From the NCBI GenBank assembly GCA_963726745.1, contig CAVSDR010000003.1, positions 1 to 64,000 of the forward strand: 64,000 nt of DNA, in the 5' to 3' direction. This document shows, piece by piece, positions 1,379-63,327 of this stretch. The translations under genes and the position numbers were made by a program. This DNA is from an uncultured Verrucomicrobiae bacterium (GTDB lineage Bacteria > Verrucomicrobiota > Verrucomicrobiia > Chthoniobacterales > UBA10450). Each line of letters opens with the position of its first letter. The stretch's first letter is position 1. Under the pieces are notes generated by a model that was given only the letters and a program-made list of their open reading frames with translations, had not been told where the DNA came from and ran no database searches.

Positions 1379-3294
1379 TCATTTCAAAGGGGAAGGTGAA
1401 AAGTCTAAAGGGGAAGGTTCGCGAGAGACAGGGACGCTGGAATCCTTCTGCGCTCGTTCGATGAAGAAATTTCCCAAAACCAGGACGTCCATTTTCGTGC
1501 GGAGGAAGCAATCGAGCGCTTCTTCCGGGCGACAGACGACGGGCTCGTTTTCGTTGAAGGAGGTGTTCAGGACCAGCGGGACGGAGGTCTGCGCGTAGAA
1601 GGCGGAAATGAGCTGATGGTAAAGCGGATTGGTCTCGCGATGGACGGTCTGCAAACGTCCGGAGCCATCGGCGTGGCAGACCGCAGGGACAAGGTCGCGC
1701 TTCTCCTCACGGAACTGGAACACTTGCATCATGAACGGGACGTCGTCGTCCTGCTCGAACCACTCGGCGACGGCTTCGCGCAGGATCGACGGGGCAAAGG
1801 GGCGGAAGGACTCGCGGCGCTTGATCTTGGCGTTGAGGATCTCTTTCATGTCGGCGCGGCGCGGGTCGCCGAGGATGGAGCGCGCACCGAGGGCGCGCGG
1901 GCCCCATTCCATGCGCCCCTGGAACCAGCCGACAACCTGGCCGTCGGCGATCGCCCGGGCGGTGCGATCGCAAGAGAGCTGAAAGGCTGAAGCCTGAGCA
2001 GCTGAAAGGCTGAAATCCTGAAAAGCTGAAATGGAACAGCCGGCGTCTTCGATTTCAGCTTCTCTGCTTTTCAGCAGCGCAGCGATTTCCGCATCCGAAG
2101 TAGGAAGGTCCGAGGTAAGCGGAGGACAAAGTGGAAAGTGGAAAGTAGGAAGTAGAAGACGACTTTTGCCCGGATCGTTCCGTTTCTCGGCTCCCACTTT
2201 CTCCTTTCTCCTTCGTCCTTTCCCCTTTCTCCGCCACGACCACTGCCGCCGCGCCGATCGCGCCCCCGGCATCGCCCGCCGCGGCTGGGAGATACATCCG
2301 CTTGAAAGGCGTGTTGAGGTAGACTTTGCCGTTGGCCACGGAGTTCATCGCGCAGCCGCCGGAGAGAGCGAGATTCTCGGACGGATGCTCGCGATGCAGC
2401 GCCTGGAGCAGGGCGAAGAAGGCTTCCTCATACATCGCCTGGGCGGAGCGAGCCAGATCCTTGTGCCGTTGTTCGAGCGGCGCCTGCGGCTCGCGCATCG
2501 GCCCGAGCAGCTCGGCCAGCCCCGGCTTGAACAGGCGGCCGACTTCCGGCGCGCAATCCTTCCAGCTATAGGCCACGTTGTCGGTGTGGTGGCGGAAGTA
2601 TTTCAGGTTTAACTCGAAGGTGCCGTCGGGCTGGATGCGGAGGATTTCGCGCATCTGCGGGAGGTAAGTCGGCTCCCCATAGGGCGCCAGGCCCATGACC
2701 TTGTATTCGTCGCCGTAATGCGGGAAGCCGATGAACTGCGTGATCGCCGAGTAGAAAATGCCTAACGAGTGCGGGAAATAAACTCGCTGGCTAATTTCGA
2801 TCGCGTTCCCCCGCCCCATGCCCAAGGCGGTGCTGGCAAAGTCGCCGAAGCCGTCGACCGAAAGGCAGGCGGCTTCCTCGAAACCGGAAACGAGGAAGGC
2901 GGAAGCCAGGTGCGCCAGGTGATGCTCGACGTGATGAATCTCGGCCGTGATCTCCCGGGCGTAGGCCGTTTCGAGGGCCTCTTTCACGCCCGCGGCGCTG
3001 CGGATGTTCCTGACCTTTTGCAGCAGGAGCCGCGGGTCGGGCCAATGGGTGGCAACGAAGGCAAGGCGGCGCCAATTATTTACTCCCGGCTTCCGGTTGA
3101 CCGCGATGTGGTCGACGTCGCCCAGCGTAGGCGCCGGCCTCGCGCAGGCAGTAATCGATCGCCTGCGTGGGCAACCCGGCCCAGTGCTTGACCCGGCGAA
3201 AACGTTCCTCTTCGGCGGCCGCCAGCAATTCGCCATCGCGAAAAATGCAGGCCGCGGAATCGGCGTGGTAAGCGTTTAATCCTAAAACGATCAT
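1379..3294 (-). CDS. Carbamoyltransferase, NodU/CmcH family (split by 2 frameshifts)
   Basis: MIVLGLNAYHADSAA...EEERFRRVKH; HHLAH; GRMEWGPRALGARSILGDPR; KRRESFRPFAP; LNTSFN across ORFs 3076-3294, 2055-3236, 1379-2272. Confidence 0.93.
2128..2232. repeat. Inverted heptamer array (AAAGNNG ... CNNCTTT) inserted in frame in the carbamoyltransferase
   Basis: aaagtgg aaagtgg aaagtag ... ccacttt ctccttt ctccttc gtccttt ccccttt. Confidence 0.75.
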
Positions 3295-3304
3295 TTTTGG
3301 ATCG

Positions 3305-3452
3305 AAAAGCTGAAAAACTGAAACGCTGATGCTCTGAAATTAAGCCACGGCTTAGGCCCGGACGCAGGATTAGTCGGCGATCTCAAACCTTTCAGCATTC
3401 CGCGTCTCGGCTCTCAGGATTTCAGCTTTTTAGGATTTCAGCTTTTCAGCGT
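3305..3452. repeat. Inverted octamer array (CTGAAAnn ... nnTTTCAG); related arms at 171-205, 1978-2032, 13984-14013, 15850-15873
   Basis: aagctgaaaaactgaaacgctga ... tttcagctttttaggatttcagcttttcagc. Confidence 0.75.
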
Positions 3453-3457
3453 TTCCC

Positions 3458-4225
3458 TCACACATCCGCCCAGCGCGGGCGGAGAGGAGGCAACTCGGAG
3501 CGATAGCGGAAAAGCATCCGGAGATCGGTGAAAGCGATGCCTAATCGGGGCAGCAGCATCCCCGGCTGCGCGACCAAACGGGCAAGCCAGCCGAGCGAGG
3601 CGCTCTCGGCCCATTCGGGCACGGGGCGCTCGCTTCCATTGAGAAAGGCGAGGGCTGCGCCGACGCAATGAATGCACGGTTTGAAGAGGAGATAATCGCG
3701 CAGGTAGCAGGCCAGGTGTTCCTGCGTGCCGGTAGCAGTGGCCACGATGATCTGCTCGGGCCGGGCTTCTTCGATCGCAAGCAGAAGCGAGTGATCCGAT
3801 GCACTTCCCGAGGGGGCGCGGACGAGAATTTGCTCGGGGTGCACGGCTAAGCCCTCGCGCTGCAGGCTCTGGAGCGAAAGGTCGCGTTCGGCCTCGGACT
3901 GGACAATCCACAGGGTCGTTGCAAGTCCACTTTCTCGTAGCTGCGCAAGGAGCGCGCGAAAATAGTGCGACGCGGAGATGGAGCGCATTTTGCGTCTGGA
4001 AAGGAGCGACCAGGTGGAGGCTAGAAGGTGGCTATCGAGCAAGACCATGTCGGCGCCGGTCAGATTTTCGCGGTAGCTGGCTTCGTGCTCGAGCTTGGAG
4101 AGCGCCGGGGCGGAAGGAATGAGGAGCACGCCTTTGCGCGCCTGGAAGAGCGCGATCGCTTCGGCTGCCTCTCCATTAAAAAAATCGATCCCGAGGATGC
4201 GTTCGAAAGAGGCCGGGGACTGCAA
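3458..4225 (-). CDS. WecB/TagA/CpsF family glycosyltransferase
   Basis: RILGIDFFNG, ADMVLLDS, IHCVGAALAFLNG, PEWAESASLGWLARL. Confidence 0.8.
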   Translation of the reverse strand: MQSPASFERILGIDFFNGEAAEAIALFQARKGVLLIPSAPALSKLEHEASYRENLTGADMVLLDSHLLASTWSLLSRRKMRSISASHYFRALLAQLRESGLATTLWIVQSEAERDLSLQSLQREGLAVHPEQILVRAPSGSASDHSLLLAIEEARPEQIIVATATGTQEHLACYLRDYLLFKPCIHCVGAALAFLNGSERPVPEWAESASLGWLARLVAQPGMLLPRLGIAFTDLRMLFRYRSELPPLRPRWADV

Positions 4226-4431
4226 ATTTGCACTCAGATGGCGCCGTCAGCGAGTGGGTGCTTGAGAGCGCAGTTTTAGCCGACCACTTGAAAGCTAACG
4301 GGTGCCGGGCAAGCTGCCGCCCTTGGTCGCATCGTCCGCTGGGGGGACGACTGACCGGACGCGAGCTTTGAAGATGTTTTCATTCGTTGCACCCGGGACG
4401 GCCGCAACTGACGGAACTTGCTACCTTATAA

Positions 4432-5298
4432 TTACGGAATCTGTGAGAGAAGGTTTTTCTCTGATTCGCTCTCCTTCACTGGATCTCCGACTGCGCCGAG
4501 GCTTCGGTTCAGCCGGACCGGAGAGGCGGTTCCGCAGCGCCGTAGCGCAGGAGGAGCCAAAGCAGCCGCCGGGCCTTTCCAGAGGCGGGGGATGAACACG
4601 CGCGGCTGGGTGAGCAAGCGGAGGAACCAGCCGAGATAAAGGCGGTCGGCCCAGTCGGGGATCGCGACCTGGTCGCCGGTGACGAAGCCGAGTGCGCCGC
4701 CGATGCAATGGATCGCCGGCCTCCTTGCGAGGTTCTCGCGCAAATACCAGCCGAGCTTTTCCTGCGCGCCGGCGCCGAGGCCAATGACGATGTGCGCCGG
4801 TTGGAGGTTGCTGGCTAATTCCAGCAGCGCCGGGTCCGTTACTTCGGCACGATAGATCGGCGCGACGTAGCAATGACCGGGCGGAATGCTGACCTCGTGT
4901 CGCGCGGCCCAAGCCAGCAGGTGCTCGCGAGCGCCGTTGTGCGGGAGGATCCAGAGGACATTTTCCGCAGCGCGGAAATCCGGATGGGCTAGCAGCAGTT
5001 TCAGATAAGCCAGCCCGGAGATGCGGCGGACGCTCCGACCGGAGCGCAGCCGCCAAAGTGAGGCCATCAGGCCGCTATCGGCCAGGGCAAGATCGGCGGA
5101 GAAGATCGCGCGCCGATAGGCGGCATCTTGTTCGAGGCGTTCGAAGCAGGTCCCCGAGGGAGCCACGACCAGACCGCCACGCCGCGCAGCGAACTCGACC
5201 GCCTCTGCCGCAGTGGAGCCGTTGAAGAAGCGAATTCCGAGAATCTGCTCCGTGGCGGGATTAGCGGCGGGCGCAGGCGTGCTCACGACGTGATTCAA
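4432..5298 (-). CDS. WecB/TagA/CpsF family glycosyltransferase (paralogue; C-terminus may be frameshifted)
   Basis: ADLALADSG, IGLGAGAQEK, IHCIGGALGF, PDWADRLYLGWFLRL. Confidence 0.85.
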   Translation of the reverse strand: MNHVVSTPAPAANPATEQILGIRFFNGSTAAEAVEFAARRGGLVVAPSGTCFERLEQDAAYRRAIFSADLALADSGLMASLWRLRSGRSVRRISGLAYLKLLLAHPDFRAAENVLWILPHNGAREHLLAWAARHEVSIPPGHCYVAPIYRAEVTDPALLELASNLQPAHIVIGLGAGAQEKLGWYLRENLARRPAIHCIGGALGFVTGDQVAIPDWADRLYLGWFLRLLTQPRVFIPRLWKGPAAALAPPALRRCGTASPVRLNRSLGAVGDPVKESESEKNLLSQIP

Positions 5299-5864
5299 TC
5301 GAGGTGCTGATCAAAGATGCGCTGGAGCTTGCGGAGGATCTCCGGTTCCTCCTTCAGTTCGACCAGGGGACGGAGTTCCTCCCAAATTTGCGCGAGCTTC
5401 AACCTGCGTCCCTGCCGCTCCACGATTCCTTCGAGGTCGATCCAATCCTGCGTCCGACTGGCGAAGGCTTTGTGCACGATCAAATCCTCCGCACTGCACG
5501 TGACCAGCGGATCAATGGCCCGCTGAGCCTCCCATCGACTGGCCCGTTCAATCGTCCGCTCCTCGAAGGGCAAAGCGCCCAAAGCGATGTCTAAGGGAAC
5601 GCCAGCACCGGAGAACACCCGGAGAACCCGCGCGCGTGGAGCGAAGTCGCGCTCGCCGTCGAAACGCGCTCGGAATTTTTCCAGGAGAGGATCGATGAAC
5701 TTTTCCTCGGTGCCAATTCCGGTCAGCAACGTCATGTCCGCATCATGCGTGAAACGCGGCTGCGACCACCGTTGCACCGCCAGGCCGCCGATGAAGCAAA
5801 AGCGCCACTTCCGTTCTTCGCAGAACCTCTGGAGCTCCGCAGCGGCTTCGAGAACATTTCCCAT
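5295..5864 (-). CDS. Nucleotidyltransferase (AbiEii/DUF6036-like pol-beta fold), putative toxin
   Basis: FIGGLAV...PRFTHDADM, EDLIVHKAFASRTQDWID. Confidence 0.8.
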   Translation of the reverse strand: MGNVLEAAAELQRFCEERKWRFCFIGGLAVQRWSQPRFTHDADMTLLTGIGTEEKFIDPLLEKFRARFDGERDFAPRARVLRVFSGAGVPLDIALGALPFEERTIERASRWEAQRAIDPLVTCSAEDLIVHKAFASRTQDWIDLEGIVERQGRRLKLAQIWEELRPLVELKEEPEILRKLQRIFDQHLD

Positions 5865-6125
5865 CACTTTTTTGAGTGAAGCAATTGGAAAAGCCGCTGC
5901 TGCTCCACCAATCCCGCAGACAGCGCGCGACCTGGCTCAACCCAGATTTCATCCGCCGACGAAGTACTCTAAGGTCACCGCTTCGTCGAAGGCCTCCTCC
6001 TCAGTCAAAGCGCGCAGCTCCCGGCGCTTGATTGCTTCCAGCTCCGGGCCGACACGCTTCCAATTCTCCACCCAGGCGCGCATTTGCTCGCGCTCGGGTA
6101 ACTTCGCGACTTCTTTCCAATCCAC
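5864..6125 (-). CDS. Small partner protein of the nucleotidyltransferase (frameshift near 5955), putative antitoxin
   Basis: VDWKEVAKLPEREQMRAWVENWKRVGPELEAIKRRELRAL then DEIWVEPGRALSAGLVEQQRLFQLLHSKK*; TGATG overlap with the NTase start. Confidence 0.65.
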
Positions 6126-6224
6126 CGGGGCAGCGTATCGCGAAGCGCGCGCTTGCGCGAGAGTTGTCGCCAGCATTCCCGGCGTGGCTATGCGCCGCGC
6201 GGAAAGCTGATATACTCTCCCGCC

Positions 6225-7919
6225 GTGCCGGAAACCGCTGCCGCCCCTGCCCTGCCGCGTTCGGTCCCCGGCGCTCCATTATCGCCGCGTGCGGCGTGGG
6301 TTTTCGCCGGGCTGACGCTGGCCGGCCTTTGGTTTGTGCTTTGCCGACACCTCGCGAGCGAATGGGCGATCAACGAGCAATACAGCTACGGCTGGTTTGT
6401 GCCGTTCTTTGCGCTCTTCCTTTTTTGGCTGCGCTGGGAAGAGAGAGGGAAAGTCGACGGGAGAAAGGTGAAAGGAGAAAGACCTCTCGGCTCCGACCTT
6501 CTCCTTTCCACTTCGGCCTTTCTCCTTTTCTTCACTCTTCTGCCTGTCCGGCTGTTCGAGATCGGGAATCCGGATTGGCGGCCGCTTGGCTGGGTGCATG
6601 CGGGCGTGGTCGTGGGGCTGACTTTTCTCTTTCTCGGGCGCCTCGGCGGCTGGGCTTTTGTGCGGCATTTCGCCTTTCCGGTCTGCTTCATTTTTGTCTC
6701 CGTGCCGTGGATCTCCGGGATTGAAATGCCGGTGATCCAGGGGTTGATGCGCGCGGTCGCGGCGGTGGCGGCGGAGACGTTGAATCTCTTCGGCATCCCG
6801 GCGCAGCTCGAAGGCAATCTTATCCGGGTAAGCAGCGGGCTGGTGGGAGTGAACGAAGCCTGCAGCGGCGTGCGTTCGCTCCAGACTTCGCTCATGATCG
6901 GGCTGCTCTTTGGCGAGCTAAAGCGACTCTCAGTGGCGCGCCGCGCGTTCCTGCTCGGCGGCGCGGTCGCGATCGCGCTCCTGGCTAATTGCGTGCGCGC
7001 GCTCTTCCTCGTCTGGCTGGCCGCGAGCGACCAAACCAGCGCGGTCGGCCGCTGGCATGATCTTGCTGGCTATTCCATCGTGGGCGCCGTCTTCCTCGGA
7101 ACCATGGCGCTGGCCGCGGCGTTGGAGGAACGAAGAGCGGAAAGTCCCGAAGCTTCGCCTCCGCATTCGCTGCCGCACTTTCTCCTTTCCCCTTTCCCCT
7201 TTCTACTTTCCCTCCTCTGGCTCCTCGCGGTGGAGGCGGGCGCGGAAGGTTGGTATCGGCTGCATGAGCGCCAGCTCACGCCGGAAAGCGCCTGGACCGT
7301 GCGCTGGCCGGAGCAGGCGCCGGGCTTCCGCGAGATCGAGATCGATGAAGGCGTGCGCCGCACCTTGCGCTACGATGCCGGCCGCGAAGCCGCCTGGCTC
7401 CTCCCAAAAACAGACGACATTCTCACCGCGCCGAAGAGCTCGCCGAATAACGCCGCGACTTGCCTGGCGTTCTTCTTTCGCTGGGAAGCTGGCGGCTCGA
7501 GCGTGCTCCGCGCACGGGCGCATCGCCCGGATATCTGCCTGCCGAATGCCGGCTGGGATAAGCTGGCTGATCGCGGCAGCGCGGACTTCGCGGTGGGCGC
7601 GCTGCAACTGCCGTTTCGGCGCGTGACTTTCCAGCGCTCCGGCGGCGGGCCGATGGCCTACACCTACTTCTGCCTGCAGGAGGATCAACGCCGCCTGCGC
7701 GAGGAGCGACCGGACTTGCTCCCGTTCACCGGGACGCAGCCCGATTGGTCCATCGCCGGTCGCTGGCGCACGGTCCGAAACGGGGTGCGCAATCTCGGCC
7801 AGCAAGTGCTCGAGATCGTGCTCGTGGCCCCGCCCGGCAGCGGCGGCGACGCCGAGGCGGTCGATCGCGAGTTTGCCGGCGTCTTGCGCGGGATCGTCGC
7901 GCCCGCGCCGTCGCGGTAA
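6225..7919 (+). CDS. Exosortase fused to an EpsI-like C-terminal domain
   Basis: Multi-TM protein; catalytic triad contexts EACSGVRSL (Cys), ANCVRAL (Arg), WHDLAG (His); HRPDICLPNAGW EpsI-type motif. Confidence 0.9.
   Translation: MPETAAAPALPRSVPGAPLSPRAAWVFAGLTLAGLWFVLCRHLASEWAINEQYSYGWFVPFFALFLFWLRWEERGKVDGRKVKGERPLGSDLLLSTSAFLLFFTLLPVRLFEIGNPDWRPLGWVHAGVVVGLTFLFLGRLGGWAFVRHFAFPVCFIFVSVPWISGIEMPVIQGLMRAVAAVAAETLNLFGIPAQLEGNLIRVSSGLVGVNEACSGVRSLQTSLMIGLLFGELKRLSVARRAFLLGGAVAIALLANCVRALFLVWLAASDQTSAVGRWHDLAGYSIVGAVFLGTMALAAALEERRAESPEASPPHSLPHFLLSPFPFLLSLLWLLAVEAGAEGWYRLHERQLTPESAWTVRWPEQAPGFREIEIDEGVRRTLRYDAGREAAWLLPKTDDILTAPKSSPNNAATCLAFFFRWEAGGSSVLRARAHRPDICLPNAGWDKLADRGSADFAVGALQLPFRRVTFQRSGGGPMAYTYFCLQEDQRRLREERPDLLPFTGTQPDWSIAGRWRTVRNGVRNLGQQVLEIVLVAPPGSGGDAEAVDREFAGVLRGIVAPAPSR
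6440..6530. repeat. Inverted heptamer array inserted in frame in the exosortase
   Basis: gagaggg aaagtcg acgggag aaaggtg aaaggag ... cttctc ctttcca cttcggc ctttctc. Confidence 0.65.
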
Positions 7920-8045
7920 ATCCGCGGCACGATCGGCCGCCGCGGTCCGGCCTGCTTGGCCGAACGAATTCTCCGCCTTCGCGGCCTCGCGCGAGAAAAT
8001 TTCCGCGCGCTGGTGCGGAAGCTGCATCTGCCCTGCCTAACAACT

Positions 8046-8646
8046 ATGAAACCATCCCTCGTTCTCCGCACCGCCTTCGGCGCTCGCCGCTCTCGTCGCC
8101 GCGCTTCACCGTCCCGCTGACTCCGCCCAGGAAATGGTCGCCAATGGCGGCTTTGAATCCGGGACCTTCTCCGGCTGGACCGTGGTCGACCCGTCGAATT
8201 TCACCCTCGTCGGCACGGACGCGGCCTTCGCCATGTCGGGCAACAACTACCTGAACCTGGGCGCCAGTCCCGGGATCGGCTCGCTCAGCCAGACGCTCGC
8301 GACCACCGCCGGCCAGACCTACATGATCACCTTCGCGCTCGCGAACGACACCTTCGGCGCTTCCGCGCCGAGCAATCAGTTCGAGTTTTATTGGGATGGC
8401 ACGCTGCGCGACTCGATGACGAACGCGCCGGACTTCAACTACAACACTTACAGTTATTCCTTTACCGCGAGCAGTTCCTCGACCGTGCTCGAATTCAGAT
8501 ACCGGAACGACGACGACTTCTTCCGCCTGGATGACGTCTCGGTCGCGGCCGTGCCGGAATCCTCCACCCTGGCCTACGCGCTCATCGGCCTCGGCCTTCT
8601 CGGGACGGTGCAATATCGCCGCCGGCAGACGCGGCTCTCCGCGTAA
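8046..8646 (+). CDS. PEP-CTERM protein with a jelly-roll/CBM-like domain (signal peptide region frameshifted)
   Basis: NGGFESG...LDDVSV domain; C-terminus VPESSTLAYALIGLGLLGTVQYRRR. Confidence 0.85.
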
Positions 8647-8714
8647 GGGCGTGCGCTCGCAGCCGCGCGAAAGCGCGGCAAACGCTTGCACTTCCCCGCT
8701 GTTGTAGCTACTCG

Positions 8715-8754
8715 AAGGCGCTGACCGCAACCCGGTCGGCGCCTTTTCGCTTTT
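8715..8754 (+). terminator. Rho-independent terminator candidate
   Basis: AAGGCGCTGACCG / CGGTCGGCGCCTT stem followed by TTCGCTTTT. Confidence 0.55.
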
Positions 8755-8766
8755 CCCTGCACTTTC

Positions 8767-10559: not shown

Positions 10560-10560
10560 G

Positions 10561-10608
10561 CCGGAGCGCGGCCGTCCCGGCTGCGCGGCCTGCAGGCGTC
10601 TCGCCTGC
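10561..10608 (+). repeat. 48-bp REP-like element, copy 1
   Basis: Matches the reverse complement of 16026-16073 with 5 mismatches; contains the GCAGGCG...CGCCTGC palindrome. Confidence 0.75.
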
Positions 10609-10624
10609 AGCCAAAGAACCATCG

Positions 10625-10720
10625 ATCCACAGATTTCACCGATTCTCACAGATTAAAAATCCCACCCCGCCATCTGATCCAATTTCCCAAAAATCTGCGT
10701 AAATCTGCGTAATCTGCGGA
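10625..10720. repeat. Inverted 9-10 bp array (CAGATT ... AATCTG); related copies at 13608-13637, 15913-15945, 17358-17377
   Basis: ccacagatttcaccgattctcacagatt ... aaatctgcgtaaatctgcgtaatctgcgg. Confidence 0.7.
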
Positions 10721-11006
10721 CACTTCCCGCAGCCCGCTCCAGCGCCTGGGCCCACTCCGCCTCATCCAAATTGAAGATCTGATCGCCGAGCGTCTCTTGG
10801 TGGCCACGCAACCCCGCTTTGACCCAGAGCGTTGGCAGATCGCCAAAATCTTGCTCGCGGCCGGGTGGAAAGGCTTGGTCACCCTCGATCGCGAAGAATT
10901 AAGGCGCGTCGCCGGGTCCTCCGATTACCGCGTTGGCCCAGAACTCGAGCGCATGATCCTGGAAATCGAAGCCAGCACCTCGAGCGGCAACGATTCGCGA
11001 CCATGA
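10713..11006 (+). pseudogene. 5'-truncated remnant resembling a nucleotidyltransferase C-terminal half
   Basis: Open frame ...LRLIQIEDLIAERLLVATQPRFDPERWQIAKILLAAG...; cut upstream by an in-frame TAA inside the repeat array; family call is from memory only. Confidence 0.35.
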
Positions 11007-11224: not shown

Positions 11225-11239
11225 TTGCCCCGGAGTCGG

Positions 11240-52566: not shown

Positions 52567-52575
52567 AGTTGCTGC

Positions 52576-53724: not shown

Positions 53725-53782
53725 CGAGCCGGAAGCATCCATTTGTCGGCCGGCGCTTTCGCGGGAAAGCTGGGCCGCGTCC

Positions 53783-55646: not shown

Positions 55647-56459
55647 ATGCCGCTGCGCCTCAATGTCAGCAGTCGCGCCTCCAAGCTGAGCGGCGGCGAT
55701 GCCCTCTGCATCTCGATCCCGAATAGCGGGCGGACTTGGATTCGCACCTTTCTCGCGGCCTATTATTGCGCGCGCTTTGGCCACGAGTTTTCGCTCGCGC
55801 CGGAGAGCTACGGCGACGCCCGCATCCCGCGCGTGATCTACACGCACGATCTCTACGAGCATCATACCAAGGGCCGGGCCTACGATCGTCTCCGGAGTAA
55901 ATATCTCGTCCCGCGCGCGGAGATTACGCGCGCCGCGATCCTTCTGCTGGCGCGCGATCCGCGCGACGCCTTTGTCTCGCATTCGCTCGAATTGCGCCGC
56001 CGCACCGCGGAAACTGCCGGCGAATTGAAAGACCGCAGCATCGGCGAAATCCTGCGCGATCCGATCCACGGGATCGACCTGATGGTGGAGACGATGAACG
56101 CCTGGCTGCGGGAGTTTAGCCAGCGCGCTGATTGCCTCCTGGTCCGCTACGAAGACCTGCACGCCGCGCCGGAGAAAGAGTTCCGCGCGATCCTTGCGCT
56201 CCTCGGCGAGGCCGCGCCGAACGAGGAAAAGTTCGCGCATGCGCTCGGGTTCTCGCAGTTCGGGAACATGAAAAAGATGGAAGCCTCGCGGCAATACGAT
56301 CCGCAACTCCTGCAACCCGGGGACGTGAACGACCCCGAGTCCTACAAGGTCCGCCGCGGCAAGGTCGCCGGCTATCGCGATTACCTCCAGGGCGAAGACC
56401 TGGCCTACGCGGACGCCGCGGTTGCGCGGCTCGACCCGCGCTTCGGCTACGCGGCCTAA
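55647..56459 (+). CDS. Sulfotransferase-domain protein
   Basis: PNSGRTW, RDPRDAFVS, RYEDL, KVRRGKV. Confidence 0.85.
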   Translation: MPLRLNVSSRASKLSGGDALCISIPNSGRTWIRTFLAAYYCARFGHEFSLAPESYGDARIPRVIYTHDLYEHHTKGRAYDRLRSKYLVPRAEITRAAILLLARDPRDAFVSHSLELRRRTAETAGELKDRSIGEILRDPIHGIDLMVETMNAWLREFSQRADCLLVRYEDLHAAPEKEFRAILALLGEAAPNEEKFAHALGFSQFGNMKKMEASRQYDPQLLQPGDVNDPESYKVRRGKVAGYRDYLQGEDLAYADAAVARLDPRFGYAA

Positions 56460-56465
56460 CGAGCG

Positions 56466-58298
56466 ATGTGCGGCATCGCCGGCTACGCCAGCCCGGAAAA
56501 GCGCACGCCGCTGCTGCGCGCGCTCTGCGACGGCCTGCGTCATCGTGGGCCAGATGATGCCGGCTATTTCGAGGCGCCCGGGATTGGCCTGGGGATGCGG
56601 CGGCTGAGCATCGTCGATCTCTCCGGCGGCCACCAGCCGATGGCGAACGAGGACGGCAGCGTGGTGGTGGTTTTTAACGGCGAGATCTACAACTACGTCG
56701 AGCTGCGCGCCGGGCTGGTCGAGCGGGGCCATCGCCTAACGACTCATTCGGACACGGAAACGCTGGTCCATCTTTACGAAGAACACGGCCTCGAGATGCT
56801 CAATTTCCTGCGCGGGATGTTTGCCTTCGCGCTCTGGGATGCACGGAAGGGTCGACTCTTCCTGGCGCGCGATCGGCTCGGGAAAAAGCCATTGAATTAC
56901 TTCCTCAGCGGCTCCGGGATCGTCTTCTCCTCCGAGCTCGCGCCGCTCCTCGACCAGCGCCTGGCCGCATGGGAAATCGACCCCGCGGCGCTCGCGGCTT
57001 ACCTGCAATTTGGCTACATCTCCGCGCCGCGCACGATCGTGCGACAGCTGCACAAACTCCCGCCCGCGCATTACCTCACCTGGCAAAATGGCGCGGTCGA
57101 AGTGCAGCGCTACTGGGCCTTCACGCAGAAGCCGAAGACGCGGCGCACGCACCAGGAAGCGCTCGTGGAAGTGCGCGAGAAGCTCGACGAAAGCATTCGC
57201 CTGCGCTTGCGCAGCGATGTTCCGCTCGGCCTGCTCCTGAGCGGCGGGCTCGACTCGAATGCGATCCTCGCGCGCCTCGTCCGCGGGATCGGTCACAAGG
57301 TCCAGGCTTTCACGGTGGGCTTCGCGGAAAAGGAATACGACGAGACCGCGATCGCGCGCCTTTCCGCGGAGCACTTCGGCGTGGAGCACCATGTCCTGCG
57401 GGGCGACCCCAACCTGCTCGGGCTCCTCCCGGAAGCGGTGCGGCATTACGGCGAGCCGAACGCCGACAAGTCGATTTTGCCGACGCTGCTCGTCTGCGGC
57501 CTCACCCGGCAGCACGTGAAAGTCGCGCTGAGCGGCGATGGCGGCGACGAGGCTTTCGCCGGCTACACGAAGCATCGATTGCAACCCTGGCAGGTGAAGT
57601 TGTCGGCTCTTTTGCCGGCCACTTGGAAGGAGCGCTGGACGCTCGCCTCGATGCTTGGGGGCAGCAAAGCCGGGGGCAAATTGCGCCGCCGCCTCCTCGC
57701 GGAAACGCCGAGCCTCTTCTCCGGCGAAATGTTTTCCGGCGAGCACTTCGCGGCCCTGGCGACGGATCATTTGCGCGCCGAAAGCGATAATTTCCTGCGC
57801 GGCTGGGTGGCCCACTTCTGGGAGGACGAGCTCGAGCCGCTCGAGCGCATCCTCCGCTGGGACAACACCGATCCGCTGCCAAATTCCCTGCTGACGAAAC
57901 TGGACATCGCGAGCATGGCTCGCAGCCTTGAGGTGCGTTCGCCCTTCCTCGACCACGAGCTGGTTGAGCTCTGCGCGCGTTTGCCTAACGAGTGGAAAGG
58001 CAATGCCCAGCAGGGCAAGCTCCTCCTGCGCGAGATCGTCGCGCCGGATCTGCCGCCGGAAGTGCTCCAGGCGCGGAAGCGCGGCTTCTCCGTGCCGCTG
58101 GCGCAGTGGTGGCGCGAAGGGGCACGCGGGCAAATCCGTGACGGACTACAGCCGTTGCATCCCGCGCTCCAGCCTTTCCTCTGCGAAAAGGCGATCGCGC
58201 GACTGCTGGAGGAACATCAATCCGGCCGAGCGAATCACGCACAGCGCCTCTGGAATCTTTGGGTCTTGAACGAATGGGCGCGGCAATTTCTGCCATGA
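56466..58298 (+). CDS. asnB: Asparagine synthase-like amidotransferase
   Basis: MCGIAG, HRGPD, NGEIYN, SGGLDS, LSGDGGDE, EVRSPFLD. Confidence 0.93.
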   Translation: MCGIAGYASPEKRTPLLRALCDGLRHRGPDDAGYFEAPGIGLGMRRLSIVDLSGGHQPMANEDGSVVVVFNGEIYNYVELRAGLVERGHRLTTHSDTETLVHLYEEHGLEMLNFLRGMFAFALWDARKGRLFLARDRLGKKPLNYFLSGSGIVFSSELAPLLDQRLAAWEIDPAALAAYLQFGYISAPRTIVRQLHKLPPAHYLTWQNGAVEVQRYWAFTQKPKTRRTHQEALVEVREKLDESIRLRLRSDVPLGLLLSGGLDSNAILARLVRGIGHKVQAFTVGFAEKEYDETAIARLSAEHFGVEHHVLRGDPNLLGLLPEAVRHYGEPNADKSILPTLLVCGLTRQHVKVALSGDGGDEAFAGYTKHRLQPWQVKLSALLPATWKERWTLASMLGGSKAGGKLRRRLLAETPSLFSGEMFSGEHFAALATDHLRAESDNFLRGWVAHFWEDELEPLERILRWDNTDPLPNSLLTKLDIASMARSLEVRSPFLDHELVELCARLPNEWKGNAQQGKLLLREIVAPDLPPEVLQARKRGFSVPLAQWWREGARGQIRDGLQPLHPALQPFLCEKAIARLLEEHQSGRANHAQRLWNLWVLNEWARQFLP

Positions 58299-59075: not shown

Positions 59076-60736
59076 GCACCCGCGCGGCGCGCCGGAGGAC
59101 GCGCGCGCCCGTTTCCGCGAGAAACAAAATCCCCATGCCGACTGCGAGCAAGGCGAAGGCGTATTGCGCTTCGCTGTAGCGCTCGATGTGCATCGAGTGG
59201 AGCACAGAGGTCCCGAGGGTGTTGCCGAAGTTGTAGCCGAAAACGAGCAGTGTGGCCCCGGCCAGCGGCCAGAGCGCCTTCCGCCACGTGCGCCGCAGGA
59301 GAATGCCTAACGAGACCAAAACCGTGCCCAAAAGCACTGGTAAATAAAGAAGGGCGAGGCACCATTTCGCCACGCGCACCAAAAGGCTTTGCGGAATCAC
59401 GGCCTTGGTTTTCGCGAGCCGGGGAAGCTCCGCGAGGTAGCGCGCAAAGATCGGCGCGCGCGCTTCTTCCGTGGTCGCGCGGGTGAGATTCTCCGCGCTG
59501 CCAGCGTAGAAACGATCGAGGTCGAGCGTGCTGCGCCGGCCGAAGCTGGGGTTGCCGCTCCAGCGATAGAAGAGGCCCAGCTGCGTGGCCACCTTGTGCG
59601 CCATTGCGCCGGGCTGCCGGCGGACCGTGCGCCAATAGTAGTGCCGGTAAAAGGCCAGGAGCTGCTCGTGGTCGCCCGCGAAGAAACGCTCCGGCCACGC
59701 CGCGATCCCCGGCGAGTGATAGAAGAGGTAATCGGGATCGAAGCCGAAGCTCTCGTATTGCCGGCTATTTTCCCAGGACTTCACCAGCTCCACGTGCAAA
59801 CTCGCGGCCACTTCCCCGAGCCAGCCGCAGGCATAGGGCGCGCACTCGCCGTGCGCCACATCCGCGTCCATCTGCCGCGCGATCAGGTTCGCATGGATCG
59901 TGAACAAACTCTCCGCGAGGAAGGAGGGCGCACCGGGATCGGATCGGGCCAGCCGGCTTTCGGTCAGGAACAAGGCCGTTGCTACCAGGAGCCCCGCGCC
60001 CAGCACGGCGGCGCGGCGCGACCAGAGTTCCCGCCGAGCGCACAGCGCGAGCAACACCGGCACGACGCTGAACCAAACGGTGAGCGCAAAACTGGTCTTG
60101 AGCGTGGCCAGGAGCGCGGAGTTCACCAGGACCGCGCCCGCCGATCCAGGCCGCACGATTCGACGGCGCCTGCCGAAAGCGCAGGCGAAAAAACCGCAGC
60201 GTGAGCCAGATATTGAGCAATGCAAAAAAAGGCGTGATCGCTTCCGGCCGGAGGTCGAGCTCGTAGTGCAGCGGCCGGCTCGAGTGGAGGTAGATCGCAG
60301 CCAGGCCGAGGAAGAAAAACCGGCTCGCGAGCCGCGGCAGGCCACGCAGGAGCGGCTCGAGTTCTCGCCCCGCCGCGAGCAGGAGCGCGCCCGTGCCCAG
60401 CCCGAGCGCATGCTGCAGCGCGCCAATCCCGGCGAAACTCTTCGTTAGGCCAAGAACCAGGAGAAGGAACCCCGGATAGAGAAAATTCCGCCCGTACGTA
60501 TGGGTAAACGAGCCCCCCGCCAGCTTCGCAATCGCCGGGTGGAGATAGCCCCAGCTATCGCGATCGGCCAGCGGCCAAAGCGGCAGGCCGAAACGCGTCG
60601 TCGCCGCCGAGAGAAACACCAGCGCGAGGAGCGCGAAGTAGCAGAGCGTTCCCGCGAGACGCAGCCCACGAAGGACGGCCGGCGACGGCTGGAGCCGGGC
60701 CCAGAGATTGTCGGCTAAATTTCCCAGCGTCCCCAT
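59011..60736 (-). CDS. Polytopic membrane protein, possibly GT-C-like (frameshift near 60145)
   Basis: Many TM segments; DRDSWGYL, RNFLYPGFL, LRPEAI. Confidence 0.6.
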
Positions 60737-61636: not shown

Positions 61637-61751
61637 TGGTGGAGACACTTCGGTGAAACCTCCAGCGGTGCAAGAAGCAGGCCAGCGTGCGGTGGGTTTT
61701 TGCTCGCTTTTTAGCCGGCAACCTCGGCATCCTCCGCCCGCTCCCATCCCC

Positions 61752-62112
61752 ATGATCACCGGCGCCCACGCGATTATTTACAGCCAGAACGCCGAGGCCG
61801 ACCGCGCCTGCCTGCGCGACGTCTTCGAGCTTTCGCACGTGGATGCGGGCGACGGCTGGCTCATCTTCGGCCTGCCCCCTTCGGAAGTGGCGGTCGCATC
61901 CCGGCGAGGAAAACAGCCGGCACGATCTCTATTTTCTCTGCGACGATGTAGAGGCCTTCCGCGCCGAGGCTGGGAAGCGCGGGCTCACCTGCGAACCGGC
62001 CCAGGACATGGGCTGGGGCGTGCTCACCCATGCGACCCTTCCCGGCGGCGGAAAGATCGGCATCTACCAGCCGCGCCATGCGCGCCCGGCACCGAGGCCG
62101 GCCGCTCGTTAG
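61752..62112 (+). CDS. Glyoxalase/VOC family protein (frameshift near 61900)
   Basis: MITGAHAIIYS...VDAGDGWLIF; LYFLCDDV, GWG, LPGGGKIGIYQPRH. Confidence 0.85.
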
Positions 62113-62151
62113 GCGCATTGCCGGGAGCCCGCGGCGCGGGTAGCTTGCCCG

Positions 62152-63327
62152 GTGGAAGACTTGTTCCAGGTGGAGGAAGAGGTGAAGGCGGTGAAACCGG
62201 CCACGGCCGCGTCCCCCCTGGCCGCGCGCATGCGGCCGCGCTCGCTCGAGGAATACGTGGGCCAGCAGCACATCCTCGCGCCAGGGAAATTGCTCCGGCG
62301 CGCGATCGAGGCGGACCGGTTGCCGTCGGTGATTCTTTCCGGCCCGCCGGGCACGGGCAAGACCACGCTGGCGCAAATCATCGCGGGGATGACCGGGGCA
62401 AAATTCGAGCGCTTGAGCGGCGTGGAAAGCAACGTCGCGGAGATGCGCAAGGTGGTGGCCGCGGCCGCAAACCGCATCCGCACTTCCGGGCAAAAGACGA
62501 TCCTTTTCGTCGACGAGATTCACCACTTCAACAAAGCGCAGCAGGACATCTTGCTGCCTGATGTGGAGAGCGGAAACCTGCGGCTGATCGGCGCCACGAC
62601 CTACAATCCGTTCTTCTACGTGAACAGCGCGCTGGTCTCGCGCTCGCAGGTTTTCCAGCTCGAGTCCTTGAAGGTCGAGGAGCTCGAAGACCTGATCGAC
62701 CGCGCGCTCGCGGACACCGAACGCGGCCTCGGCCAGCACAAAGTGCGGATGGACGCCGGGGCGAAGCGCCATCTCGCAAAGCTGAGCGACGGCGACGCGC
62801 GGAAATGTCTGAACGCACTCGAAATCGGCGTGCTCACGACCGCGCCAGACGAGCGCGGCGTGATTCATTTCACGCTCGAAGTCGCAGAGGAAACCATCCA
62901 GCACAAGGCGATCGTCTACGATCGCGCGGGCGACGCGCATTACGACACGATCAGCGCCTTCATCAAGAGCATGCGCGCCTCCGACGAGAAGGGCGCGATC
63001 TATTGGCTCGCGAAAATGCTGCATGCCGGCGAAGACGCGCGCTTCATCGCGCGCCGCATCGTCATCTTCGCCAGCGAAGACGTGGGCCTGGCGGATTCGC
63101 GCGCGCTCCTCGTGGCCGTGGCCGCGCAGCAGGCGGTCGAGTTTGTCGGCCTGCCGGAAGGCCGAATCACCCTGGCCCACGCGGTCTGCTACATGTGCCG
63201 GGCGAAGAAAAGCCGCGAATCCTACGACTCGTTAGGCAGCGCTTTGGAAGAAGTCGAGACCGAGCACACCCAGCGCGTCCCCGAGCGCTTGAAGAACAAG
63301 CACTTCCCGGTCAACCCGGAGAAATAG
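62152..63327 (+). CDS. rarA: Replication-associated recombination protein A
   Basis: PLAARMRP, GPPGTGKT, DEIHHFNKAQQD, HYDTISAFIKS, SEDVGLAD. Confidence 0.93.
   Translation: MEDLFQVEEEVKAVKPATAASPLAARMRPRSLEEYVGQQHILAPGKLLRRAIEADRLPSVILSGPPGTGKTTLAQIIAGMTGAKFERLSGVESNVAEMRKVVAAAANRIRTSGQKTILFVDEIHHFNKAQQDILLPDVESGNLRLIGATTYNPFFYVNSALVSRSQVFQLESLKVEELEDLIDRALADTERGLGQHKVRMDAGAKRHLAKLSDGDARKCLNALEIGVLTTAPDERGVIHFTLEVAEETIQHKAIVYDRAGDAHYDTISAFIKSMRASDEKGAIYWLAKMLHAGEDARFIARRIVIFASEDVGLADSRALLVAVAAQQAVEFVGLPEGRITLAHAVCYMCRAKKSRESYDSLGSALEEVETEHTQRVPERLKNKHFPVNPEK

What the first reader, a model, noticed from the sequence alone, without database searches (positions are those of the whole stretch)
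2761..63236. Highly iterated non-palindromic motif CCTAACGA (extended GCTGCCTAACGAG): candidate DNA-uptake-like sequence
Seen: I counted 29 exact copies by eye. Plus strand: 2761, 24945, 26479, 40612, 43326, 43797, 45253, 45376, 47870, 48985, 49291, 52188, 52575, 53720, 56455, 56735, 57984, 59306. Minus strand (TCGTTAGG): 25656, 27830, 31963, 33362, 34208, 36802, 41569, 49959, 60442, 62106, 63229. One-mismatch copies lie at 21337, 21754, 28879, 30280, 36849, 44519. The full 13-mer occurs at 36801, 41568, 49958, 52571, 53716, 63228. A rough base-composition estimate predicts only 1-2 copies. Copies sit in pgi, the NtrC-type gene, ybeY, ndh, recQ, asnB and rarA in different frames (S-L-G via TCG TTA GGN, L-T via CTA ACG, P-N-E), using TTA/CTA codons that are otherwise rare, so the constraint acts on DNA rather than protein. 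Established: Neisseria DUS and Pasteurellaceae USS are dispersed, non-palindromic, about 1 per kb and written into coding sequence; Chi and KOPS are strongly strand-skewed, whereas this motif is only 18:11. Inference: an uptake sequence or chromosome-organising protein site. I know of none described for this lineage.
Basis: partly seen in the sequence, partly recalled or inferred. Interest (0 to 1): 0.9.

Follow-up and report, generated by a model that had tools for sequence, protein, structure and literature searches.

The report
Uptake-sequence-like DNA word shared across phyla
A short DNA word (core CTAACGA, usually GCCTAACGAGT) is written about 2,000 times through the genes of this uncultured soil Verrucomicrobium, and is also abundant in many soil Gemmatimonadaceae; it behaves like the "self-DNA" uptake tags so far known only from Neisseria and Haemophilus relatives, but its function is untested.

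Summary
All 29 exact CCTAACGA copies lie at the stated coordinates, against 0.84 expected. In the whole 3.41-Mb genome it is the most over-represented 8-mer: 1514 copies, 40 times expectation.

The constraint acts on DNA. A codon-aware null gives about 41 copies in genes against 1113 observed, and 489 of 764 Ser-Leu-Gly tripeptides use the rare TTA codon. There is no replichore polarity. The word is scarce in variable surface-glycan loci. It is kept between species far above neutral expectation: 53% of sites shared against about 13%.

The word marks the whole Chthoniobacterales family of this genome. It is also abundant in 32 of 251 sampled genomes of a family whose record title reads Gemmatimonadaceae.

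My best reading, at about 0.45, is a DNA-uptake-sequence-like signal. ComEC, DprA and pilus genes are present, but no ComP-type receptor, no terminator pairing and no assay support it.

A second, independent word (GGCTAATT) also occurs. This scan had already noted comparable uptake-like words on other DNA.

The parts
2761..2768 (+). M1 copy. The carbamoyltransferase gene on the - strand reads TCG-TTA-GG (Ser-Leu-Gly).
24945..24952 (+). M1 copy in pgi, read CCT-AAC-GA (Pro-Asn-Asp/Glu).
25656..25663 (-). M1 copy in pgi, read by the gene as TCG-TTA-GG (Ser-Leu-Gly).
26479..26486 (+). M1 copy in the histidine-kinase-type gene, read xxC-CTA-ACG-A (Leu-Thr).
27830..27837 (-). M1 copy in the sigma-54 activator (NtrC-type) gene, read Ser-Leu-Gly.
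31963..31970 (-). M1 copy that supplies the TAG stop codon of the nucleotidyl-transferase gene 31199-31969.
33362..33369 (-). M1 copy that supplies the TAA stop codon of the bactofilin gene 33365-33925 (-).
34208..34215 (-). M1 copy, intergenic.
36802..36809 (-). M1 copy in the DUF2071 gene, read Pro-Asn-Glu.
40612..40619 (+). M1 copy that supplies the TAG stop codon of the DUF4440 gene 40613-41053 (-).
41569..41576 (-). M1 copy, intergenic.
43326..43333 (+). M1 copy in clpS (-), read xTC-GTT-AGG.
43797..43804 (+). M1 copy in ybeY (-), read Ser-Leu-Gly.
45253..45260 (+). M1 copy in ndh (NDH-2, -), read Ser-Leu-Gly.
45376..45383 (+). M1 copy in ndh (-), read Ser-Leu-Gly.
47870..47877 (+). M1 copy in the HlyD-type gene, read Leu-Thr.
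48985..48992 (+). M1 copy in the ABC ATPase gene, read Leu-Thr.
49291..49298 (+). M1 copy in the ABC ATPase gene, read Leu-Thr.
49959..49966 (-). M1 copy in the ABC-2 permease gene, read Ser-Leu-Gly.
52188..52195 (+). M1 copy in recQ, read Leu-Thr.
52575..52582 (+). M1 copy that supplies the TAG stop codon of gene 52576-53082 (-).
53720..53727 (+). M1 copy that supplies the TAA stop codon of the response-regulator gene 53302-53724.
56455..56462 (+). M1 copy that supplies the TAA stop codon of the sulfotransferase gene 55647-56459. The word recurs at the aligned place in 2 of the 4 relatives' loci that align there (L012, L015), L010 has a one-letter variant and L014 lacks it.
56735..56742 (+). 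M1 copy in asnB, read Arg-Leu-Thr. It is kept in 5 of 8 relatives' loci (a sixth aligns with a gap); the remaining 3 relatives encode Arg-Phe-Thr or Arg-Leu-Ala there.
57984..57991 (+). M1 copy in asnB, read Pro-Asn-Glu. It is kept in 4 of 8 relatives, and a fifth has the G-to-A variant; relatives without the word encode Pro-Ala-Lys, Pro-Lys-Ala or Pro-Pro-Asn.
59306..59313 (+). M1 copy in gene 59011-60156 (-), read Ser-Leu-Gly.
60442..60449 (-). M1 copy, intergenic by my gene calls.
62106..62113 (-). M1 copy, intergenic. It is kept in L015.
63229..63236 (-). M1 copy in rarA/mgsA, read Ser-Leu-Gly. It is kept in 3 relatives' loci and is spanned without difference by one contig of a public soil run.
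21337..21344 (+). First-base variant GCTAACGA (core CTAACGA intact).
21754..21761 (-). First-base variant ACTAACGA.
28879..28886 (+). First-base variant GCTAACGA.
30280..30287 (-). First-base variant ACTAACGA.
36849..36856 (-). First-base variant GCTAACGA.
44519..44526 (-). First-base variant GCTAACGA.
2769..21336 (.). An 18.6-kb stretch without any core copy. It holds WecG glycosyltransferases, an AbiEii-like gene, exosortase EpsH, a PATR-repeat protein and hypothetical genes, so it is a variable surface or exopolysaccharide locus.

Best explanation
M1 (G-C-CTAACGA-G-T-n-n-W) is a genome-wide self-DNA word that a sequence-specific process keeps intact at the DNA level. The most likely process resembles the DNA uptake sequences of Neisseriaceae and Pasteurellaceae. 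In that model a DNA-binding part of the type IV pilus / ComEC-DprA transformation route prefers fragments that carry the word. Such fragments are taken up and recombined more often, so alleles with the word replace alleles without it (a molecular drive). The word therefore accumulates wherever a protein or intergenic sequence tolerates it, and damaged copies are replaced.

Shown here: the word is real, constrained at the DNA level and non-polar. It rewrites codons and amino acids. It is maintained between species. It is scarce in variable loci. It occurs in two phyla. A full-domain ComEC gene, DprA and pilus/secretin genes are present.

Inferred: that the word is read during uptake, and what the receptor is.
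For: 1. Abundance. The window holds 29 copies against 0.84 expected. The genome holds 1514 8-mers, 40 times an order-2 Markov expectation and the top-ranked 8-mer. The 10-mer GCCTAACGAG occurs 820 times against 4.4 expected. The 7-mer core occurs 2025 times, or 0.59 per kb, on all 7 contigs.

2. DNA-level constraint. Shuffling synonymous codons within genes gives 29.8 sense and 11.3 antisense copies against 522 and 591 observed. Of 764 Ser-Leu-Gly tripeptides, 489 are written TCG-TTA-GGN although TTA is only 2.8% of Leu codons. Of 248 Pro-Asn-Glu tripeptides, 154 are written CCT-AAC-GAG. Copies use four frames, lie in intergenic DNA, and supply 181 stop codons. The tripeptides Ser-Leu-Gly and Pro-Asn-Glu are themselves over-represented, at 1.63 and 2.47 times expectation. 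Relatives without the word have other amino acids at the same asnB places.

3. No polarity. The strand counts are 609:558 and 181:166 in bins of opposite GC skew, and the orientation of neighbouring copies is random.

4. Maintenance. G000 and G024 are 74.5% identical in aligned DNA, yet 62 of 117 G000 sites are shared (53%). The neutral chance for seven letters is about 13%. With the word-poor G002, at the same divergence, 4 of 45 sites are shared.

5. Distribution. Copies closer than 200 bp are half as frequent as under a Poisson model. The longest empty stretches are O-antigen or exopolysaccharide clusters and giant surface-protein genes. Word density rises with local GC, r 0.39 to 0.57.

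6. Dialect-like variation. G630 uses (C)GCCTAACG(A) without the 3' G-T.

7. Machinery. G000 has ComEC with DUF4131, Competence and Lactamase_B domains, a DprA-SSB-TopA cluster, a PilM-to-secretin cluster, several T2SSE ATPases and about a dozen pilin-like genes. All 32 word-rich genomes of the 251 sampled have a ComEC match. The 24 genomes without a match have at most 135 copies.
Against: No uptake or transformation has been shown for these lineages, and searches found no paper on it.

Two hallmarks of known uptake sequences fail. Only 6 convergent pairs closer than 60 bp occur among 2018 neighbour pairs. In the window, at most 1 of 28 copies between 24 and 64 kb touches a terminator-like hairpin, and such hairpins are themselves near chance level.

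No ComP_DUS family hit passes the cut-off in 5 word-rich genomes.

The pilin/DUF7305 operon beside dprA is present in word-poor G002 and was not found in word-rich G024, G340 or G041.

ComEC is nearly universal (227 of 251 genomes, and 10 of 14 control genomes), so its presence is weak support.

One word shared by two phyla, plus a second unrelated word in the same genome, is unlike the one-word-per-lineage picture of the known families.

Flanks of shared sites are no more alike than the rest of the alignment (0.741 against 0.745), and a 332-kb sample of G630 has no near-identical DNA in G000. There is therefore no trace of recent exchange.

At scales of 2 to 10 kb the spacing is roughly Poisson (variance/mean 0.95 to 1.26), so it is not regular.
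Confidence: 0.45

Rival explanations
1. The word comes from an intracellular drive. A sequence-specific enzyme, such as a nickase, a mismatch-directed repair enzyme or a partner of a modification enzyme, biases repair or gene conversion towards the word. This is what has been discussed (recalled, not from a call) for the HIP1 palindrome of cyanobacteria. No DNA uptake is involved.
For: Word density changes about 30-fold among species of one genus at similar divergence. The same word is patchy in a second phylum. A second, independent word (GGCTAATT) is confined to a few species. I infer that this is how mobile specificity genes behave. The word holds a CpG, and its commonest core variant is the CpG transition CCTAACAAG, with 100 copies.
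Against: At seven core positions every kind of substitution is missing, not only deamination products: 1 to 22 copies per variant (up to 50 for the expectation-rich CCGAACGAG) against 960 perfect 9-mers, apart from the G-to-A variant. A single-mismatch repair enzyme would not produce this. The deficit of copies closer than 200 bp has no obvious cause under this model. I identified no candidate enzyme, and I did not search for Vsr or methyltransferase genes.
Confidence: 0.2
2. The word is the binding site of an abundant chromosomal protein. This could be a nucleoid-organising factor or an unskewed, Chi-like self marker that protects own DNA from a nuclease. On this view the word is kept by ordinary selection on each site.
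For: The core is razor-sharp, as expected for a protein site. Density is uniform at 40 to 50 8-mer copies per 100 kb. Sites are conserved between species. The word is scarce in foreign-looking, lower-GC loci.
Against: The word is dispensable. G002, G003, G005 and G012 of the same genus have roughly one tenth to one fifth of G000's 8-mer or 10-mer copies. There is no replication polarity, unlike Chi and KOPS (their skew is recalled, not from a call). Thousands of sites written into proteins at a coding cost is not known for any nucleoid protein (recalled).
Confidence: 0.15
3. The word is not a real signal. It would then be a by-product of base composition or codon usage, a dispersed repeat element, or an assembly or base-calling artefact.
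For: The window's assembly has few, long contigs, so a long-read origin is possible (inference). Reads could be laid only as small contigs of soil runs that share few sampled words with the window.
Against: Dinucleotide, Markov and codon-aware nulls all fail by 20- to 190-fold. Flanks are unrelated beyond about 3 bases, so this is not a repeat element. The word is abundant in many independent assemblies. It is conserved at orthologous sites in them.
Confidence: 0.01

Closest known systems
DNA uptake sequence (DUS) of Neisseriaceae, with its dialects, read by the minor pilin ComP
   Same: Both are short non-palindromic words present in hundreds to thousands of copies, inside genes and between them. 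Frames that would give a stop codon are avoided. Both are enriched in core DNA and scarce in diversifying or acquired DNA, and relatives differ in the flanks of a shared core (dialects). These properties are as described in the introduction of 10.1101/2025.10.24.684340 (read), compared.
   Different: The phylum differs: Verrucomicrobiota and Gemmatimonadota, by record titles. No ComP_DUS hit passes the cut-off. There are almost no inverted pairs or terminator copies, whereas that preprint's abstract puts about half of such sequences in terminators. The same core occurs in two phyla, and a second word occurs in the same genome. Uptake is untested.
Uptake signal sequence (USS) of Pasteurellaceae, with the minor pilin ComN/PpdA as predicted receptor
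   Same: Both have a strict core with weaker, partly A/T-preferring positions a few bases downstream: T at +2 and W at +5 after the core. The AT-rich USS flanks are recalled, not from a call. Most copies lie inside genes and shape peptides.
   Different: The sequence is unrelated. I did not search for ComN, which I know only from the abstract of PMC12616744 in the listing. Function is untested.
HIP1 (highly iterated palindrome) of cyanobacteria; recalled, not from a call
   Same: Both are hyper-abundant 8-mers written into genes in several frames, with patchy abundance among relatives and an unresolved mechanism.
   Different: HIP1 is a palindrome. M1 is asymmetric, and its reverse complement is a different word.
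Chi and KOPS/FtsK-orienting sites; recalled, not from a call
   Same: Both are over-represented asymmetric 8-mers of core DNA.
   Different: Those sites are strongly skewed with replication direction and far less enriched. M1 shows ratios of 52:48 and 52:48 in bins of opposite GC skew and 40- to 190-fold enrichment.

Membership tests
DNA uptake enhancing sequences (DUS/USS) | A short (about 9-12 nt) non-palindromic word in hundreds to thousands of copies per genome | tested here: met
   1514 copies of the 8-mer, 820 of the 10-mer and 2025 of the 7-mer core in 3.41 Mb.
DNA uptake enhancing sequences (DUS/USS) | Both strands are used about equally, with no replication polarity | tested here: met
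   609:558 and 181:166 in bins of opposite GC skew. The two strands are mixed along a 650-kb contig of G546. GC skew is weak in this genome, so replichores are only roughly known.
DNA uptake enhancing sequences (DUS/USS) | The word is written into coding sequence by a DNA-level force, and stop-giving frames are used only at gene ends | tested here: met
   The codon-aware null gives about 41 copies against 1113 observed. Four frames are used, and the two stop-giving frames appear only as 181 true gene stops.
DNA uptake enhancing sequences (DUS/USS) | Enriched in core DNA, scarce in acquired or diversifying regions | tested here: met
   19 gaps of 9 kb or more against 9 expected. The largest gaps are polysaccharide clusters and giant surface-protein genes with lower GC. 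I made no formal core/accessory partition.
DNA uptake enhancing sequences (DUS/USS) | Dialects: relatives share a core but differ in the flanks | tested here: inconclusive
   G630 uses (C)GCCTAACG(A), whereas G000 uses GCCTAACGAGT. CCTAACCCG is only modestly raised, in 5 of 251 genomes. Word-poor G002 showed no replacement word in a 254-kb sample.
DNA uptake enhancing sequences (DUS/USS) | Frequent inverted-repeat pairs that act as transcription terminators | tested here: not met
   6 convergent pairs closer than 60 bp among 2018 neighbour pairs. At most 1 of 28 window copies touches a terminator-like site.
DNA uptake enhancing sequences (DUS/USS) | The transformation machinery is encoded (ComEC, DprA, type IV pilus, secretin) | tested here: met
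   for G000. 32 of 32 word-rich Gemmatimonadaceae-titled genomes have ComEC. These genes are common in bacteria generally, so this is weak evidence.
DNA uptake enhancing sequences (DUS/USS) | A dedicated receptor: ComP (Neisseriaceae) or ComN/PpdA (predicted, Pasteurellaceae) | tested here: not met
   Pfam ComP_DUS gave no hit over the cut-off in G000, G024, G340, G041 or G630; the best was 24.6 bits against a cut-off of 27.3. I did not search for ComN.
DNA uptake enhancing sequences (DUS/USS) | DNA carrying the word is taken up or transforms better than DNA without it | not testable with these tools
   This needs a culture and an uptake assay.
Chi / KOPS-type polar sites | Strong strand skew with the direction of replication | tested here: not met
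HIP1-type iterated palindromes | The word is a palindrome | tested here: not met
   The reverse complement of CCTAACGA is TCGTTAGG, read directly from the sequence.
Dispersed repeat elements (REP, MITE) | Copies share extended flanks, lie between genes, and form hairpins | tested here: not met
   Information content falls to zero beyond -2 and +11. By my gene calls, 84% of copies lie in or on genes.

The most novel reading that the evidence does not exclude
The word belongs to a portable DNA-recognition system. A horizontally moving specificity component, such as a pilin-type DNA receptor or another sequence reader, has written the same GCCTAAC(G) core into a Verrucomicrobiota family and into many Gemmatimonadaceae, with local dialects. 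A second such component would have written GGCTAATT into a few species of this genus. If these are uptake signals, they are the first outside Proteobacteria and the first shared between phyla, which would amount to a common tag for DNA exchange among unrelated soil bacteria.
Probability: 0.25. Interest if true: 0.95.

Novelty: new variant of a known kind. Interest (0 to 1): 0.8.

Why it matters
According to the 2025 preprint introduction read, uptake sequences are established in only two families of Proteobacteria. A word with the same genomic signature in abundant, uncultured soil Verrucomicrobiota and Gemmatimonadota would show that self-DNA recognition, or some unknown process that mimics its imprint, is much more widespread. 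It would also give a sequence handle for tracing gene flow in soil metagenomes. Finally, because word density varies from near baseline to about 1 per kb among close relatives in two phyla, it offers a natural comparative experiment for finding the responsible gene.

Tried and rejected
Papers. A full-text search for the word itself returned only primer-like hits. Searches pairing 'uptake sequence' with Gemmatimonad* or Verrucomicrobia, and natural transformation or competence with these taxa, found nothing relevant.

Receptor hunt. The pilin and DUF7305 genes beside dprA are present in word-poor G002 (68% identity) and were not found in G024, G340 or G041, so I rejected them. A 222-aa pilin with a weak ComP_DUS-like stretch is conserved across the whole family, word-poor genomes included. 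In G041 it matches only at the pilin N-terminus, so it does not discriminate.

Polarity scare. Runs of '+' matches in the multi-genome listing were a listing artefact; one search shows the strands mixed.

Only 5 of 251 genomes are modestly enriched.

Recent exchange. There is no raised identity around shared sites and no near-identical DNA between a 332-kb G630 sample and G000.

Reads. Only small contigs of three soil runs from one study could be laid (word shares 0.13, 0.07 and 0.00). One contig spans a copy without any difference, and none of the 40 listed variant places falls in a copy; 122 more variant places were not shown. The run may be the window's own source, so I give this no weight as independent support.

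Regular spacing. Only a short-range deficit holds up. At 2 to 10 kb the counts are about Poisson, with extra empty bins.

My gene calls are crude: a home-made codon-model finder gave 2849 genes and 86% coding. Frame and intergenic counts are therefore approximate.

In one search I used the 610-aa protein at 56466-58295 believing it was RecQ. Pfam shows it is AsnB. The loci that call fetched are AsnB neighbourhoods.

Not searched: viral contigs, metagenome contigs, Vsr or methyltransferase families, and ComN.

Full report
OBSERVATION. CCTAACGA occurs 29 times in the window (18 on the + strand, 11 on the - strand) at exactly the coordinates given. Dinucleotide-preserving shuffles give a mean of 0.84 and never more than 3. 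The 13-mer GCTGCCTAACGAG occurs without mismatch at the six stated places. The window's other 14 one-mismatch 8-mers are at chance level. Pfam confirms the named genes: PGI, a sigma-54 activator, YbeY, NDH-2, RecQ, AsnB and MgsA/RarA.

WHOLE GENOME. The window is the start of contig C3 of a 3.41-Mb, 7-contig assembly with 64% G+C. The 8-mer occurs 1514 times, at 0.35 to 0.63 per kb on every contig. It is the most over-represented 8-mer against an order-2 Markov model, at 40 times expectation. GCCTAACGAG occurs 820 times against 4.4 expected. Aligning all copies shows where the information lies. G precedes the 8-mer in 87% of copies, and the next bases are G (63%) and T (44%). A/T is preferred three bases further on. 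Everything beyond that is background, apart from a three-base periodicity that reflects codons. Seeding on the 7-mer CTAACGA gives 2025 copies and the logo G(87%) C(75%) CTAACGA G(64%) T(44%) n n W(71%).

THE CORE IS VERY SHARP. There are 960 perfect CCTAACGAG 9-mers. Variants at the positions C-T-A-A-C and at the A after the G number 1 to 50 each, which is 0.1 to 2.8 times expectation. Variation is tolerated only at the first C (G 184, A 86, T 63), at the G of CG (G to A, 100 copies) and at the last G (C 265, A 256, T 33).

THE CONSTRAINT IS ON DNA, NOT PROTEIN. I used my own rough gene calls: 2849 genes covering 86% of the genome. The 1514 copies divide as follows.
- 487 are read by the gene as TCG-TTA-GGN (Ser-Leu-Gly).
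- 271 are read as xxC-CTA-ACG-A (Leu-Thr).
- 238 are read as CCT-AAC-GAx (Pro-Asn-Asp/Glu).
- 102 are read as xTC-GTT-AGG.
- 235 are intergenic.
- 181 supply the gene's own stop codon (108 TAA, 73 TAG).

In the window, six copies are stop codons: 31963, 33362, 40612, 52575, 53720 and 56455.

Shuffling synonymous codons within each gene predicts 29.8 ± 7.5 sense and 11.3 ± 3.1 antisense copies, against 522 and 591 observed. This null is generous because it keeps the rare codons that the word itself contributes. Of 764 Ser-Leu-Gly tripeptides, 489 are written TCG-TTA-GGN although TTA is 2.8% of Leu codons. Of 248 Pro-Asn-Glu tripeptides, 154 are written CCT-AAC-GAG.

The proteome is bent as well. 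Ser-Leu-Gly is 1.63 and Pro-Asn-Glu 2.47 times expectation from amino-acid composition. In asnB, relatives with the word encode Leu-Pro-Asn-Glu-Trp. Relatives without it encode Leu-Pro-Ala-Lys-Trp, Leu-Pro-Lys-Ala-Trp or Leu-Pro-Pro-Asn-Trp. Core density is 0.53 per kb in my coding calls and 0.99 per kb outside them. The last tenth of genes is enriched because of the stop-codon copies.

GEOMETRY. The word has no replication polarity: 609 forward to 558 reverse in bins of negative GC skew, and 181 to 166 in bins of positive skew. Neighbouring copies are randomly oriented (535, 496, 494 and 493). Copies closer than 200 bp are half as common as a Poisson model predicts (5.4% against 11.3%). Only 6 convergent pairs lie within 60 bp of each other. 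At 2 to 10 kb the counts are about Poisson (variance/mean 0.95 to 1.26), with extra empty bins. There are 19 gaps of 9 kb or more against 9 expected. The largest gaps are an O-antigen-type polysaccharide cluster (25 kb, 58% G+C), giant PATR, dockerin or BNR surface-protein genes, and, in the window, the exosortase/glycosyltransferase stretch from 2.8 to 21.3 kb. I saw no integrase or phage genes in the gaps I annotated. Word density rises with local G+C, r 0.39 to 0.57. Terminator-like hairpins in the window are near chance level, and at most one touches a copy.

WHO HAS IT. Record titles of the closest AsnB neighbourhoods (63-75% identity) name Chthoniobacterales or Verrucomicrobiota MAGs. 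I first mistook that query for RecQ; one search shows it is AsnB.

In 24 other genomes of the same genus, the 10-mer count runs from 51 (G002, reversed-word control 40) to 1549 (G024). In 16 genomes of other families of the order it runs from 0 to 14. The reversed word is a poor control, because words containing TA are naturally depleted. For GCCTAACG the outgroups reach only 0.02 to 0.42 of their control. Every genome of the genus reaches at least 0.62 (G005), and G024 reaches 6.9. The whole genus is therefore enriched, to very different degrees.

Among 401 Verrucomicrobiota, only G000 and G340 (same family, another genus; 599 against control 75) are strongly enriched. G092, a third genus of the family, has 33 against 74. 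All others have 33 or fewer.

Unexpectedly, locus L021, whose record title names a Gemmatimonadaceae MAG and whose AsnB is only 41% identical to the window's, has 8 copies in 20.7 kb. Its genome G041 has 583 10-mers against a control of 21. In 251 sampled genomes of G041's family, I count 32 with 200 or more copies of CCTAACGAG and 8 with 1000 or more. The maximum is G630, with 2104 in 6.1 Mb. Counts fall continuously to zero in the rest. Both strands are mixed along a 650-kb contig of G546.

A 332-kb sample of G630 shows a dialect. GCCTAACG is its top 8-mer, with 422 copies (1.27 per kb). The preceding C and G are stronger than in G000, the following A is present in only 59%, and there is no 3' G-T preference. 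That sample shares only short stretches of 65-75% identity with G000, so the two genomes are distant and no recent transfer is visible.

These tallies include unpublished genomes: G001 and G008; G043; G473, G474, G574 and G447. None of the genomes I cite by handle as an example or extreme is among them; they enter only the tallies.

MAINTENANCE AND TURNOVER. G000 and word-rich G024 are 74.5% identical over 239 kb of aligned DNA. Of 117 G000 core sites in those blocks, 62 are intact in G024 (53%), where seven neutral letters would survive about 13% of the time. G024 has 171 further sites of its own. Against word-poor G002, at 75.7% identity, only 4 of 45 sites are shared, which is about the neutral value. 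Sites that are not shared differ at 2 to 5 of 7 letters. The word is therefore actively kept in some lineages and not in others, and sites are gained independently. Flanks of shared sites are no more similar than the rest of the alignment (0.741 against 0.745), so shared sites are old rather than recently exchanged.

MECHANISM. The only experimentally understood process I know of (from memory of the literature; no call lists the alternatives) that gives a hyper-abundant, asymmetric, non-polar word, written into genes at the cost of codons and residues, maintained across species and scarce in diversifying loci, is biased DNA uptake followed by recombination. The introduction of 10.1101/2025.10.24.684340 (read) describes these properties. 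It states that such sequences are established in two families only, with ComP as the receptor in Neisseria and ComN predicted in Pasteurellaceae.

G000 encodes the general machinery. It has ComEC with all three domains and a DprA-SSB-TopA cluster. It also has a PilM-to-secretin cluster, several pilus/T2SS ATPases and about a dozen pilin-like genes. One test that could have hurt the idea did not. All 32 word-rich genomes of the Gemmatimonadaceae-titled sample have ComEC, while the 24 genomes without a ComEC match have at most 135 copies. However, ComEC is present in 227 of 251 genomes, completeness is unknown and relatives are not independent, so this is weak support.

Several things count against membership in the known families. 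No ComP_DUS hit passes the cut-off. There is no terminator pairing. One word is shared by two phyla. A second, independent word exists. I found no paper on competence in these groups. I therefore put the uptake-like reading at about 0.45, an intracellular sequence-specific repair or conversion drive at 0.2, a chromosomal protein site or self marker at 0.15, and artefact or composition at 0.01.

SECOND WORD. GGCTAAT occurs 612 times in G000, in the context sAAnkyGCyGGCTAATTy. It lies in several frames, on both strands and between genes. Its bin counts correlate only weakly with M1, r 0.07 to 0.13. Among 40 relatives, GGCTAATT stands clearly above its control only in G011 (221) and G015 (138), and slightly in G017 and G018. 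It is at baseline in the M1-richest genomes.

EARLIER NOTES OF THIS SCAN. Other agents reported uptake-like words in other genomes, including Gemmatimonadales (one of them CCTAACCCG, which shares CCTAAC), soil Verrucomicrobia and Opitutales. I tested CCTAACCCG in the 251-genome sample. Only five genomes are modestly enriched (96-118 against controls of 25-48), and the same five also carry 146-197 copies of CCTAACGAG. These notes are leads, not support.

LIMITS. The gene calls are home-made. Taxon names rest on record titles. Samples of other genomes cover 250-400 kb. Counts from the large tables were read by eye. I opened no supplementary files.

Noticed in passing
window 2789, 4813, 6983, 9210, 9540, 16933, 21180, 24956, 25175, 35131, 41611, 44233, 45621, 55353 (starts of GGCTAAT or its complement): A second hyper-abundant DNA-level word occurs, with context sAAnkyGCyGGCTAATTy. 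GGCTAAT has 612 copies genome-wide, in several frames and on both strands. Six copies lie inside the M1-free stretch of the window. Among 40 relatives it is clearly raised only in G011 and G015, independently of M1.
   Followed up: partly
window 31984-32010 and 41598-41624: Two terminator-like hairpins have a 3' arm and T-tail that read GTCGGCTATTTTC and GTCGGCTAATTTTT. These are copies of the second word, so some of its copies may sit in terminators.
   Followed up: no
G000 genome-wide, not located: Tandem hexamer arrays of the type (GCGTTG)n give about 145 copies of each 12-mer phase.
   Followed up: no
G000:C6:622900-626130 (L101:6916-10130) and G000:C3:584400-586930 (L103:12422-14933): Two paralogous operons of small pilin-like genes followed by a roughly 490-aa DUF7305 protein. 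The first lies next to pth-rpsF-ssb-dprA-topA, and both sit in M1-free stretches of 10 kb or more. The first operon is conserved in G002 but was not found in G024, G340, G092 or G041.
   Followed up: partly
window 5298-5867 (-): An AbiEii-like nucleotidyltransferase toxin domain gene sits inside the exosortase/glycosyltransferase locus.
   Followed up: no
G028 (same order, another family): C7:94047-97613, C21:53993-56302, C13:25-1452: GCCTAACG(AG) recurs in one orientation every 400-950 bp in a few clusters of an otherwise word-free genome. This could be a repeated gene or domain, or DNA acquired from a word-bearing lineage.
   Followed up: no
G002 sample L088-L100: The word-poor congener has other over-represented words: TTGCCGTCCG (29 copies in 254 kb, 24 times expectation), which seems part of a longer unit with ACGGCAAAGTTCT, and (GAAGTAG)n-type tandem repeats.
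   Followed up: no
G630 sample L114-L133: Besides the GCCTAACG word, GGGGTCAGAG (49 copies) and a unit containing TCTCATAAATG (11-12 copies) are strongly over-represented.
   Followed up: no
L021 versus L028: Two Gemmatimonadaceae-titled loci have AsnB proteins 94% identical, yet they differ in word density: 8 copies in 20.7 kb against 1 in 10.1 kb.
   Followed up: no
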